A stretch of 60,620 nt of DNA from an uncultured Gammaproteobacteria bacterium. Lineage in GTDB: Bacteria > Patescibacteriota > Patescibacteriia > UBA9934. Positions within the stretch are counted from its first letter, which is position 1. Every line of letters starts with the position of its first letter. Below the pieces are notes generated by a model. The model saw nothing but the letters and a program-made list of their open reading frames with translations. It did not search any database and was not told the DNA's origin. Below are positions 4,755 to 5,907 of this stretch, piece by piece. Both the position numbers and the translations under genes were made by a program. Where the stretch lies: contig CAYFME010000005.1 of the NCBI GenBank assembly GCA_964344145.1, positions 1 to 60,620 on the forward strand. Direction: 5' to 3'.

Positions 4755-4783
4755 ATTGACAGACGGGTGTTTTTGTTATACGC
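4755..4783 (+). promoter_or_regulatory. House-style promoter in front of high-GC cassette
   Basis: TTGACA at 4755-4760, a 17-nt spacer with a TTTTT run, and TACGCT at 4778-4783 (alternatively TATACG at 4776-4781). The ORF-track TTG start at 4756 is actually this -35 box. Confidence 0.5.
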
Positions 4784-4827
4784 TCGTTGACCAGCAAACA
4801 GCCCCATGCCGGGGCGAAGGAGTTCTT

Positions 4828-5817
4828 GTGAGCTGGAGTGTCCTGTTCTTCCTCCTCAAGTGCAGCGTCAGCGCGGCGGAGGGTGTGCCCAATCGCGCCA
4901 AGGTCAGCGAGCCCAAGCCGGACATCACCGGTGGCGTCACGATGGTGATCGACCACAAGTGGCGCTGCGGCTTCGCGCTGTTGCGCCAGTGCGTCGCCCA
5001 CCAGTACGTCAACCCGGACGGCACGACGACCCCCGCGCTCGGGCTCGGCGGCGCCGGCGGCGCTCGCAAGGCCGACAACCCCGACGGCACGCCCGGTGCG
5101 TGGATCAACGGCTACCTGTTCGGCGGCGACTTGGTGACGGATGACCGCTACCTGATCACCGACGACGGCTGGATCGGCCCCTTCGACGCGTTCGTCGACT
5201 TCGGGTGGATGGAGCCCTTCGAGATCGTGGACCGCAGCTACTTCGGCGCCATCAAGCGTGGCGACAAGCAGGCGGCGTTCTGGGGTCGCTGGGTGAGCGA
5301 CTGGCGCGACGAGGTCCTCCCGATCGACTACGGTCTGCTGATGGTGCCGTACTACGCCTACCGTGAGGGTAGCGAGTGGTACATCGTGTACGACCCCACC
5401 GACCCGGACGGCAGCGAGCGCTACGGTCCCTTCGAGGCCATCGGCAACCACCGCATCTTCCATGTGCAGGGCAACAAGCCGGCGTTCCAGGCCTTCAACG
5501 GCGAGAGCTGGTGTGGCATCTGGGGCGACGACCGCCCGCCCGCGTGTGGCTTCGACGACGCGCCGAGCCTGTCCTACGGTGATGGCATCATCTTCGAGGG
5601 CCAGATCGACGGTCAGTACACCACCGTGCATCTGCCCGAGGACTCCGACGAGGACATCCGTGTCTGGGTGTACCCGGGAGGTGCGGGGCAGCGCGAGCTC
5701 GTCAACACGTGCAGCGTGTTCCGCGCTCACCTCGAGCCGGCGGAGTACGCCGACATGTGTCCGGACGACGTGCCCGAGCCCGACGCGTTCCTCGTCACCC
5801 CGCCCGACAACCCGTAG
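4828..5817 (+). CDS. High-GC secreted hypothetical protein
   Basis: AAGGAG at 4817-4822 sits 5 nt before GTG 4828. The signal-like N-terminus is (M)SWSVLFFLLKCSVSAAEG. Codons are GC-ending and I recognise no family. Confidence 0.65.
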   Translation: MSWSVLFFLLKCSVSAAEGVPNRAKVSEPKPDITGGVTMVIDHKWRCGFALLRQCVAHQYVNPDGTTTPALGLGGAGGARKADNPDGTPGAWINGYLFGGDLVTDDRYLITDDGWIGPFDAFVDFGWMEPFEIVDRSYFGAIKRGDKQAAFWGRWVSDWRDEVLPIDYGLLMVPYYAYREGSEWYIVYDPTDPDGSERYGPFEAIGNHRIFHVQGNKPAFQAFNGESWCGIWGDDRPPACGFDDAPSLSYGDGIIFEGQIDGQYTTVHLPEDSDEDIRVWVYPGGAGQRELVNTCSVFRAHLEPAEYADMCPDDVPEPDAFLVTPPDNP

Positions 5818-5877
5818 CGAAGAAGCTTCGACAGCGTGGCCATCCGTTGGCCAGGTTCTCTAAGTCGCTTCGCTCAA

Positions 5878-5907
5878 CACCCCGCAGCCTACTCGGCTCG
5901 CGGGGTG
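5878..5907 (+). terminator. GC-rich hairpin after high-GC ORF
   Basis: CACCCCGC (5878-5885) pairs with GCGGGGTG (5900-5907) around a 14-nt loop. Confidence 0.45.

What the first reader, a model, noticed from the sequence alone, without database searches (positions are those of the whole stretch)
4755..5907. High-GC cassette 2: promoter, SD, signal peptide, 329-aa orphan protein and GC-rich hairpin, wedged between a GT4 gene and the Cas2-fold gene
The sequence up to about 4785 is genome-typical and carries a house-style promoter (TTGACA 4755-4760). From about 4790 to 5910 the composition is strongly GC-rich. The real start is most likely GTG 4828, preceded by AAGGAG, giving the signal-like N-terminus SWSVLFFLLKCSVSAAEG. 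The ORF-track start at 4756 is the -35 box itself. The mature protein is rich in W/Y/D/G (DDGWIGPFDAFVDFGWMEPFEIVD, EWYIVYDPTDPDGSERYGPFE) and matches no family I recognise. The 380-aa antisense ORF is a GC shadow. The unit is monocistronic and ends in hairpin CACCCCGC/GCGGGGTG, as in the other islands.
Basis: partly seen in the sequence, partly recalled or inferred. Interest (0 to 1): 0.65.

Follow-up and report, generated by a model that had tools for sequence, protein, structure and literature searches.

The report
GC-rich orphan exported-protein gene, variable slot
This is a real single-gene unit for a probably secreted protein with no known relatives, and it is one of about 120 unusually G+C-rich genes scattered through a tiny (1 Mb) Uhrbacteria-like genome; at least some of those genes were taken from large high-GC bacteria.

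Summary
ORF 4828-5817 (+) has GC 0.675 and GC3 0.92, against GC3 0.40-0.61 in its neighbours. It has AAGGAG-N5-GTG, a hydrophobic N-terminus and a strong 3' hairpin. The 380-aa antisense ORF is a shadow frame.

The protein is a true orphan. It has no Pfam, NCBIfam, PHROG, PADLOC or PDB match. It has one homolog among billions of proteins: 59% identity, on metagenome contig L001. Two AlphaFold runs failed (pLDDT 37-39).

L001 carries the gene at the same place: GT4, the same terminator/promoter, the gene, the same hairpin, then the MATCAP gene. The same-genus genome G001 has an empty site. L001 and G001 both lack the Cas2-like gene. The junction is therefore a variable slot.

The L001 copy has GC3 of only 0.58, with equal GC1 and GC2.

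Genome-wide, GC3 is bimodal. About 120 genes, in roughly 87 mostly single-gene islands, share one codon signature. Their GC-richness extends into both UTRs and the terminators.

One class member, an OPT transporter, is 63-68% identical to Myxococcota-like MAG genes and is absent from 60 relatives.

Best reading: a domesticated accessory gene of high-GC foreign ancestry. An in-situ GC drive is not excluded. Function is unknown.

The parts
4737..4776 (+). Bidirectional terminator of the GT4 gene (A-run, hairpin CAUCCG/CGGGUG, U-run). Its loop and U-run supply the -35 box and spacer of the orphan gene's promoter.
   Evidence: The fold is -18.1 kcal/mol, z = -5.0. It is conserved in L001 (-16.7 kcal/mol) and in G001, where the loop reads TTTACA and no gene follows.
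4756..4784 (+). Putative sigma-70-type promoter: TTGACA (4756-4761), 17 nt, TACGCT (4779-4784). The inferred transcription start is near 4791.
   Evidence: The sequence is read. L001 has the same layout (TTGACA-N17-TAGGTT). 33 GC3-rich genes have TTGACA-N16-18-TAnnnT upstream. The -10 is weak, and the generic scan did not call the site. No transcript data were available.
4817..4822 (+). Shine-Dalgarno AAGGAG, 5 nt before the GTG start codon
   Evidence: L001 has AAAGGA 7 nt before its ATG.
4828..5817 (+). Coding sequence of the 329-aa orphan protein (stop codon 5815-5817)
   Evidence: - GC3 is 0.92 with GC1 > GC2.
- It is 59% identical to P0004 over 285 residues, with six invariant Cys (47, 55, 229, 240, 295, 311).
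- Amino-acid identity (59%) far exceeds identity at fourfold sites (37%, against 26% expected at saturation). This indicates purifying selection on the protein.
4828..4878 (+). Probable Sec-type signal peptide: (M)SWSVLFFLLKCSVSAA, with cleavage before EG
   Evidence: It has a hydrophobic core and small residues at -3/-1. The L001 ortholog has MIWNVALFLASMGINLANA before GD at the same place. There is no lipobox and no basic n-region. No predictor was run.
5818..5876 (+). GC-rich 3' untranslated stretch
   Evidence: GC is 0.59 here against 0.34 in the collinear L001 stretch. Genome-wide, the first 60 nt after stop codons of GC3-rich genes have GC 0.65, against 0.48-0.51 for other genes.
5877..5908 (+). 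Terminator-like hairpin (CACCCCGC AGCC ... GGCU C GCGGGGUG) without a U-tract
   Evidence: -30.4 kcal/mol, z = -5.0. It is conserved in L001 (-26 kcal/mol, z = -4.1), where it ends 10 nt from the stop codon of the convergent MATCAP gene.
4588..5730 (-). 380-aa antisense ORF: a shadow of the GC-rich frame, not a gene
   Evidence: GC1/GC2/GC3 = 0.84/0.45/0.63. It overlaps the 3' end of GT4.
5909..6692 (+). A second, independent insert in the same slot: the low-GC (0.43) wHTH/PaaX_M Cas2-like gene 6040-6558 with its palindromic terminator 6557-6596
   Evidence: PF20803 PaaX_M at 1.6e-11. It is absent from both L001 and G001 at this junction.

Best explanation
Window 4756-5908 is a self-contained, single-gene transcription unit.

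Expression and export:
- A promoter built on the terminator of the upstream glycosyltransferase gene most likely drives an mRNA of about 1.1 kb. The -35 box sits in the terminator loop and the U-run forms the spacer.
- Translation starts at GTG 4828.
- The N-terminal 17 or so residues direct Sec export and are then cut off.
- The roughly 310-residue mature protein is rich in W, Y, D, G and P. It probably folds as a mostly beta structure held by three disulfides, outside the cell or on its surface.
- The hairpin at 5877-5908 ends the transcript. In relatives that lack the Cas2-like gene, the same hairpin also serves the convergent MATCAP gene.

Setting:
- The gene is accessory. It occupies a variable slot at the convergent GT4/MATCAP junction of a cell-surface gene region.
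- It is found only in this genome and in one related metagenome contig.

Origin:
- It belongs to a compositionally coherent compartment of about 120 GC3-rich genes, roughly 11% of the coding DNA.
- That compartment is best explained as DNA of high-GC foreign ancestry that has been domesticated under native-style promoters. For at least one member the source is Myxococcota-like bacteria.

Shown versus inferred:
- Shown: composition, anatomy, synteny, the empty site, orphan status, protein-level constraint, and foreign origin of one class member.
- Inferred: promoter use, export, disulfides, foreign origin of this particular gene, and its role. My guess for the role is a secreted or surface binding protein used in contact with a host cell or a glycan.
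For: - Composition and frame.
- Start codon, SD and signal-like N-terminus, conserved in position in the ortholog.
- Six invariant Cys, and amino-acid identity far above synonymous-site identity.
- Hairpins.
- Independent assembly with the same two junctions (L001).
- Empty site in same-genus G001.
- No GC-rich island beside the MATCAP gene in five other genera.
- Bimodal GC3 genome-wide, with 117-126 GC3-rich genes, mostly in single-gene islands.
- GC-richness covers the 3' UTR/terminator and the 5' UTR but not the promoter.
- 91% of these genes have a strong hairpin within 110 nt after the stop codon.
- The class has about twice the Cys content, and lipobox-like N-termini in 12% of genes against 1%.
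- The class member OPT (C8:5239-7311, GC3 0.91) is 63-68% identical to genes of 6-8 Mb Myxococcota/'Deltaproteobacteria' MAGs. One of these has GC3 0.99 with flanks at 0.71-0.78. The gene is absent from G001 and all family relatives.
- The class sigma factor reaches 59% identity in that same class, against 28% to its own-genome paralog.
- The orphan shares the class codon signature.
Against: - No donor homolog of this gene exists. It is absent from 1.84 billion cluster representatives, from a metagenome scan and from 187 Myxococcota-like genomes.
- The syntenic ortholog in L001 has GC3 of only 0.58.
- Within this genome, genes shared with relatives are no less GC-rich than genes unique to it: 0.88-0.98 against 0.91. 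Their orthologs elsewhere are lower; G001 cassette 1 is 0.675. Simple import followed by amelioration does not predict this.
- Other class members (the M17 peptidase and a 567-aa no-Pfam protein) have no close match in the candidate donor class.
- The -10 box is weak.
- The signal peptide lacks a basic n-region.
- No expression data, structure or function could be obtained.
Confidence: 0.5

Rival explanations
1. Native, lineage-restricted gene kept GC-rich in place. In this reading the gene and its roughly 120 class-mates are long-standing residents. A process confined to their transcription units drives their silent sites, UTRs and terminators to high GC. Candidates are GC-biased gene conversion in frequently exchanged accessory genes, selection on mRNA stability or structure, and recurrent conversion by DNA taken up from a high-GC partner. 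The process would be stronger in this genome than in its relatives.
For: - GC1 and GC2 are the same in the two orthologs. All of the difference lies in GC3 and the UTRs: at fourfold sites in identical residues, 28 have G/C here and A/T in L001, against 4 the other way.
- The GC-rich zone matches the inferred transcript, from after the -10 box to the terminator, in this gene and class-wide.
- Orthologs stay above their own background after large synonymous divergence. L001 orphan is 0.58 against 0.41-0.50, and G001 cassette 1 is 0.675.
- There is no decay of GC3 with residence time in this genome.
- The class is as homogeneous in codon signature as the native genes. The proven xenolog OPT matches the class (r = 0.98), not its nearest foreign homolog (r = 0.68).
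- This genome's background GC (0.52) is also above that of G001, L001 and most of the family (0.40-0.47).
- An earlier follow-up on 56.6-59.2 kb reached this reading.
Against: - To my knowledge, no process is known in bacteria that lifts GC3 from about 0.57 to about 0.9 in selected genes with boundaries sharp to about 50 nt. Reported gBGC effects are small.
- At least one class member is demonstrably foreign and is absent from all relatives.
- The gene shows presence/absence polymorphism.
- There is no outgroup to polarise the substitutions.
Confidence: 0.3
2. Mobile gene cassette moved by a hairpin-directed recombination system. In this reading it resembles an integron cassette, with the CCCCGC...GCGGGG hairpin acting as the recombination site.
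For: - Most islands hold a single gene and end in a similar GC-rich hairpin.
- The indel boundaries relative to G001 fall just after the GT4 terminator and just after the hairpin.
Against: - The islands are dispersed, not arrayed: 68 of 87 are single genes.
- Each carries its own promoter.
- The hairpins share only a generic G/C stem, with variable inner stems and loops.
- No recombinase is adjacent.
- The same gene sits at the same site in two genomes that have diverged to 73% identity in flanking proteins. That points to inheritance and not to repeated movement.
Confidence: 0.07
3. Artefact or dead DNA: a chimeric assembly join, or a decaying pseudogene whose open frame is only a consequence of high GC.
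For: - High-GC DNA gives long ORFs by chance.
- Read support could not be checked.
- The L001 copy has its signal-peptide part out of frame with the rest.
Against: - An independent assembly from another sample has the same gene between the same neighbours.
- 59% amino-acid identity, with all six Cys and most W/G/P residues kept, contrasts with near-saturated silent sites.
- The codon-position GC pattern is that of a true frame.
- An SD and start codon are in place.
Confidence: 0.03

Closest known systems
Compositionally atypical genomic islets acquired by horizontal transfer, including host-derived genes reported in Saccharibacteria/CPR genomes (from my own knowledge of that literature; not re-read here)
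   Same: - GC and GC3 are far from the genome mean.
- Presence is patchy among close relatives.
- The gene lies in a cell-surface gene region.
- A class-mate (OPT) has its nearest homologs in another phylum.
   Different: - No donor homolog exists for this gene.
- There are no mobility genes, no tRNA site and no flanking direct repeats.
- The islands are single genes with native-style promoters.
- The class is compositionally uniform and shows no sign of amelioration in this genome.
Phage 'morons': extra single genes flanked by their own promoter and terminator, with a base composition unlike their surroundings (from my own knowledge)
   Same: The anatomy is the same: promoter, one ORF and a terminator hairpin, inserted between two unrelated genes, with distinct composition.
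   Different: There is no prophage context. There was no PHROG match. About 87 such units are dispersed over a 1 Mb chromosome.
Integron gene cassettes (ORF plus attC hairpin)
   Same: It is a single ORF followed by an imperfect hairpin. The gene shows presence/absence at a fixed junction.
   Different: It has its own promoter. There is no array and no adjacent integrase. The hairpins share no family beyond G/C-rich stems.
The GC-rich Cys/Asp-rich lipoprotein genes of the same genome (window 1-591, 56597-57613 and 57940-59115; PF11617-like according to an earlier follow-up)
   Same: They share the compositional class, the promoter style and the hairpin style. They are exported and Cys-rich.
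   Different: There is no sequence similarity to them. This protein has no lipobox and no DxDCDG repeats. Cassette 1 has an ortholog in G001, but this gene does not.

Membership tests
Sec (type I) signal-peptide proteins | Hydrophobic h-region of 7-15 residues near the N-terminus | tested here: met
   WSVLFFLL in the window protein and WNVALFLASMGI in the L001 ortholog.
Sec (type I) signal-peptide proteins | Small residues at -3 and -1 of a cleavage site after the h-region | tested here: met
   S-A-A before E in the window protein and A-N-A before G in L001. Judged by eye, not with a predictor.
Sec (type I) signal-peptide proteins | Positively charged n-region | tested here: not met
   The N-termini are M-S-W-S and M-I-W-N, with no K or R before the h-region.
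Sec (type I) signal-peptide proteins | Positive call by a trained predictor (SignalP), or experimental export | not testable with these tools
Bacterial lipoproteins | Lipobox [LVI][ASTVI][GAS]C at the end of the signal peptide | tested here: not met
   The window protein has L-L-K-C, with K at -1. The ortholog has no Cys in that segment.
Horizontally acquired genomic islet | Base composition and codon usage unlike the host genome | tested here: met
   GC3 is 0.92 against a genome mode of 0.52-0.64.
Horizontally acquired genomic islet | Patchy presence among close relatives, with an identifiable empty site | tested here: met
   The gene is absent from 60 relatives. G001 has the empty GT4/MATCAP junction.
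Horizontally acquired genomic islet | Closest homologs in a distant lineage (a donor) | tested here: not met
   None was found for this gene. The feature is met for the class-mate OPT.
Horizontally acquired genomic islet | Mobility signs: integrase, tRNA site or flanking direct repeats | tested here: not met
   The neighbours are GT4, a PaaX/Cas2-like gene and MATCAP. No flanking direct repeats were found.
Integron gene cassette | Promoterless ORF within an array next to an integrase | tested here: not met
   The unit has its own promoter-like site, stands as a single island, and has no integrase nearby.
Integron gene cassette | attC site with conserved inverse core sites and extrahelical bases | tested here: inconclusive
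   A hairpin is present. Across islands only a generic CCCCGC/GCGGGG stem is shared. No attC model was run.
Intrinsic (rho-independent) terminator | Stable G/C-rich hairpin | tested here: met
   -30.4 kcal/mol, z = -5.0.
Intrinsic (rho-independent) terminator | U-tract directly after the stem | tested here: not met
   The tail is UCGUGCUUCGG, and the terminator scan did not call the site. Class-wide, the mean is 3.4 T in the 10-nt tail.
Sigma-70 promoter | -35 and -10 hexamers at 16-18 nt spacing | tested here: inconclusive
   The -35 matches 6 of 6, the spacer is 17 nt, and the -10 (TACGCT) matches 3 of 6. The layout is conserved in L001 (TAGGTT) and degenerate in G001, which lacks the gene (TTTACA).
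Any described protein family (Pfam, NCBIfam, PHROGs, PADLOC, PDB) | Significant profile or sequence match | tested here: not met
   Searches gave no match. My eyeball resemblance to WG-type repeats was not confirmed: there was no Pfam hit, and hhalign self-comparison found no internal repeat.

The most novel reading that the evidence does not exclude
The roughly 120 GC3-rich transcription units form a second, internally uniform compositional compartment of a 1 Mb CPR genome, and an active process holds that compartment in place through speciation. Passive import and decay would not do this. One candidate is recurrent gene conversion by DNA taken up from one stable, high-GC, Myxococcota-like partner. 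Another is a GC drive or RNA-level selection delimited by the transcript. Under this reading the orphan gene is part of the toolkit for that partnership, and the compartment would serve as a genomic pointer to the unknown host of an Uhrbacteria lineage.
Probability: 0.2. Interest if true: 0.75.

Novelty: new member of a known kind. Interest (0 to 1): 0.4.

Why it matters
The gene on its own is an uncharacterised exported protein with no relatives, so it is of local interest only. Its setting matters more.

- About a tenth of the coding DNA of a minimal, probably host-dependent bacterium lies in sharply bounded, single-gene, GC-rich units. These units share one codon signature and carry native-style promoters.
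- At least one unit comes from large Myxococcota-like bacteria.
- If the class is host-derived, it names a candidate host for a lineage whose hosts are unknown. It also lists the proteins that may mediate the association: many are exported, Cys-rich or lipoproteins.
- If the class is instead kept GC-rich in place, that would be an unusual case of gene-specific composition control in bacteria.
- The locus also shows how an inserted gene can gain a promoter from the loop and U-run of the neighbouring terminator.

Tried and rejected
- Remote homology: Pfam (E up to 10), NCBIfam, PHROGs, PADLOC, and PDB by sequence and by profile. All were empty.
- Structure: two AlphaFold2 runs, one full-length and one on the mature part, each with the two-sequence alignment. 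Both gave pLDDT 37-39, so no fold search was made.
- Internal repeats by hhalign self-comparison: none. My impression of WG-like repeats was dropped.
- The marginal hit P0005 (E = 6e-5 over about 40 residues) is a repeat protein of unknown function. I did not use it.
- Paralogs in the own genome: none.
- More orthologs: none in 60 relatives, one metagenome scan or 187 Myxococcota-like genomes.
- Known RNA families in 4500-6700: only chance miRNA-type matches to the palindrome at 6557-6596.
- Contig ends enriched for islands: not significant, 11 of 40 ends against 18% expected, p = 0.095.
- Codon-signature comparison with 'donor' ORFs: the first version was contaminated by shadow frames, and one frame was mis-set. 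Only the L020 OPT gene was kept as the yardstick.
- Literature: two searches found nothing on bimodal GC, or on Myxococcota-derived genes, in Uhrbacteria.
- Possible remnant of the 5' UTR in the G001 empty site, which would imply loss in G001. The similarity is too weak to call.
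Full report
**What is there.** The window is the first 60.6 kb of contig C5 of a 997,777-bp, 20-contig genome with GC about 0.52. Earlier notes call it Uhrbacteria-like. Its size and gene content fit a CPR bacterium, but I did not verify the name.

Between 4.79 and 5.91 kb, GC rises to 0.64-0.70. The plus-strand ORF 4828-5817 has GC1/GC2/GC3 of 0.64/0.46/0.92. 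GC3 is 0.61 for the upstream GT4 glycosyltransferase, 0.40 for the downstream PaaX_M/Cas2-like gene and 0.53 for the MATCAP-family gene. The longer antisense ORF (4588-5730) has GC1 0.84 and GC3 0.63 and overlaps the end of GT4. It is a shadow frame.

**Anatomy.**
- GT4 ends at 4734. It is followed by an A-run/hairpin/U-run terminator at 4737-4776 (-18.1 kcal/mol, z = -5.0).
- The U-run forms a 17-nt spacer, and TACGCT follows at 4779-4784. This -10 is weak, and the generic scan did not call the promoter.
- AAGGAG (4817-4822) lies 5 nt before GTG 4828.
- After the stop codon (5815-5817) comes a 59-nt GC-rich stretch.
- Then comes the hairpin 5877-5908 (-30.4 kcal/mol, z = -5.0), with no U-tract.
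- No Rfam family matches the region.

**The protein.** It begins (M)SWSVLFFLLKCSVSAA|EG.
- It has no match in Pfam, even at E = 10, nor in NCBIfam, PHROGs, PADLOC or PDB, by sequence or by profile.
- Searches of 5.8 billion proteins and of 1.84 billion cluster representatives found one true homolog, P0004. It is 59% identical over 285 residues.
- The alignment keeps six Cys (47, 55, 229, 240, 295, 311) and most W, G, P, Y and F residues.
- At fourfold sites within identical residues the two genes agree at 37%, against 26% expected at saturation. The protein is 59% identical. The sequence is therefore constrained as a protein.
- Two AlphaFold2 runs gave pLDDT 37-39 and cannot be used. They suggest only a mostly beta protein.
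- There are no internal repeats and no paralog in the genome.
- I could not run a signal-peptide predictor. The hydrophobic core and the small -3/-1 residues are present in both orthologs. A basic n-region is absent, and there is no lipobox.

**Relatives and the slot.** P0004 lies on a 2.3-kb JGI metagenome contig, L001. The order there is:
1. the GT4 3' end;
2. the same terminator with TTGACA in its loop, then N17-TAGGTT;
3. AAAGGA and ATG;
4. the homolog;
5. the same hairpin (-26 kcal/mol);
6. ten bases later, the stop codon of the convergent MATCAP gene.

This is an independent assembly of both junction types.

L001 has no Cas2-like gene. In L001 the signal-peptide part is out of frame with the rest: 25 nt lie where the window has 48. 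This is either an assembly error at a T-run or the start of decay.

The one same-genus species genome, G001, has neither gene. There the GT4 stop, the terminator (loop TTTACA), 38 nt and the MATCAP stop follow one another directly.

None of 60 relatives carries the gene. Five other genera have no GC-rich island beside the MATCAP gene.

Flanking proteins do not resolve the three lineages:

| Protein | Window-L001 | Window-G001 | L001-G001 |
|---|---|---|---|
| MATCAP | 73% | 70% | 70% |
| GT4 (full length) | not compared | 77% | not compared |

I therefore cannot say whether the gene was gained once or lost in G001. Either way, the junction is a variable slot that has taken two unrelated inserts, one very GC-rich and one GC-poor.

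**The composition puzzle.**

| Measure | Window copy | L001 copy |
|---|---|---|
| GC1/GC2/GC3 of the orphan gene | 0.64/0.46/0.92 | 0.61/0.46/0.58 |
| GC3 of flanking genes | 0.53-0.61 | 0.41-0.50 |
| GC of the collinear 3' UTR | 0.59 | 0.34 |

Amino-acid composition is therefore the same, and the whole difference is silent and directional. At fourfold sites in identical residues, 28 are G/C in the window and A/T in L001, against 4 the other way.

The truncated 'cassette 1' at window 1-591 shows the same thing. Its G001 ortholog is an 835-aa Asp/Cys-repeat lipoprotein, 71% identical. It has GC3 0.675, against 0.88 here.

**The genome-wide class.**
- GC3 of ORFs is bimodal. The main mode is 0.52-0.64 and the second is 0.76-0.98. 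The second mode holds 117-126 genes, 10.6% of the coding DNA. They lie in about 87 islands, 68 of which are single genes, on all large contigs.
- The GC-richness is not confined to codons. The first 60 nt after their stop codons have GC 0.65, against 0.48-0.51 for other genes. This falls to background by 90 nt.
- Downstream of TTGACA-N17-TAnnnT promoters, GC jumps right after the -10 box: 0.52-0.57 in leaders against 0.35-0.42. The promoters themselves are AT-rich and of the house style.
- 91% have a strong hairpin within 110 nt after the stop codon, against 32% of other genes.
- 15 of the 18 CCCCGC...GCGGGG hairpins in the genome follow such genes.
- The class has twice the Cys content, more W, P and R, and half the Lys. 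Lipobox-like N-termini occur in 12% of genes against 1%.
- It also holds a sigma factor, a second HisRS-like gene, OPT and MFS transporters, and M17 and M20 peptidases.

**Origin of the class.**
- The OPT transporter (C8:5239-7311, GC3 0.91) is 63-68% identical to genes in a dozen MAGs labelled Myxococcota, Deltaproteobacteria, Oligoflexia or (implausibly) Rickettsiales. These genomes are 6-8 Mb. The best hit has GC3 0.99 and flanks of GC 0.71-0.78.
- That OPT gene is absent from G001 and from every family relative. More distant relatives have only OPTs of 27-41% identity. This is a clear horizontal acquisition.
- The sigma factor reaches 59% identity in the same class, against 28% to its own-genome paralog.
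- The M17 peptidase reaches only 40% or less there. A 567-aa no-Pfam member and the orphan have no match there at all.
- The class is strikingly uniform. Counting only G/C-ending synonymous codons, 91 of 97 members fit the leave-one-out class signature better than the native one, and 94 of 97 fit it better than the foreign OPT's signature. Heterogeneity is no greater than among native genes. The xenolog OPT correlates at 0.98 with the rest of the class and at 0.68 with its nearest foreign homolog.
- The orphan fits the class signature.

**Reading.** The strongest precedent-based explanation is foreign ancestry. The evidence for it is atypical composition that includes the UTRs and terminator, presence/absence with an empty site, and class-mates that are demonstrably imported from high-GC bacteria. 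The genes would then have been domesticated; here, a promoter was recruited from the neighbouring terminator.

Simple import and amelioration does not explain three points:
- this genome's copies show no decay with residence time;
- orthologs in lower-GC relatives are much less GC-rich;
- the class is compositionally uniform, even though only some members have homologs in the candidate donor class.

A single unsampled donor with repeated input could reconcile these points. So could an in-situ process acting on these transcription units. I cannot separate the two without more genomes of the genus and an outgroup.

An earlier follow-up on 56.6-59.2 kb favoured the native, persistent reading. My data partly agree, because orthologs stay elevated. 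They partly disagree, because OPT is foreign and orthologs elsewhere are far less extreme.

**Function.** Function is unknown. My working guess is a secreted or surface binding protein used in contact with a partner cell or a glycan. It rests on:
- the surroundings: two GT4 genes, a Wzy-like gene, an Asp/Cys lipoprotein, and an FG-GAP/Ig-repeat/MATCAP operon;
- the export signal;
- the six conserved Cys;
- the W/Y/D/G-rich, [ND]PDG-containing sequence.

This is inference only.

**Verdict.** The gene is a new orphan family in a known kind of setting. The genome-wide class it belongs to is the more interesting object.

Noticed in passing
window 5909-6692 (gene 6040-6558; palindrome 6557-6596): The low-GC wHTH/PaaX_M Cas2-like gene is itself an insert. 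Both L001 and G001 lack it at this junction. The same slot has therefore taken one very GC-rich insert and one GC-poor insert.
   Followed up: partly
G000 contig C8:5239-7311 (outside the window; locus L039): This GC3-rich OPT oligopeptide transporter is 63-68% identical to genes of 6-8 Mb Myxococcota/'Deltaproteobacteria' MAGs. It is absent from 60 relatives, which makes it a clear cross-phylum acquisition and a lead to a possible host lineage.
   Followed up: yes
whole genome G000 (about 87 islands; in the window 1-591, 4790-5910, 26385-26783, 56597-59115): GC3 is bimodal. About 120 genes share one codon signature among G/C-ending codons. Their GC-richness runs from just after the -10 box to about 60 nt past the stop codon, which is roughly the transcript.
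   Followed up: partly
window 4737-4784; L001 303-352; L019 (G001) about 4790-4835: The promoter of the inserted gene is built from the GT4 terminator: the -35 box sits in the loop and the U-run forms the spacer. The genome without the gene has TTTACA in that loop. Many house promoters show the same TTGACA-A-run...T-run-TGn layout.
   Followed up: partly
L001 394-609 versus 455-1366: In the only ortholog, the signal-peptide part (ATG 394) is out of frame with the mature part. 25 nt replace the window's 48 nt, next to a TTTT run. This is either an assembly error or early decay.
   Followed up: no
window 1-591; L019 (G001:C6) 9129-11635 minus strand: 'Cassette 1' is the C-terminus of an 835-aa lipoprotein with many DxDCDG-type repeats. 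It is 71% identical in G001 at the same place upstream of the Wzy-like gene. GC3 is 0.88 here and 0.675 in G001.
   Followed up: partly
G000 C14:4552-5283: A GC3 0.94 group-3-type sigma factor in a 1 Mb genome. It is 59% identical to sigma factors of the Myxococcota-like class and only 28% identical to the genome's other sigma factor.
   Followed up: partly
genome-wide, for example C4:21443, C5:26340, C8:39754, C10:22675: Terminator-like hairpins with CCCCGC/GCGGGG outer stems and T/G-mixed tails, not U-tracts, follow GC3-rich genes almost exclusively (15 of 18).
   Followed up: partly
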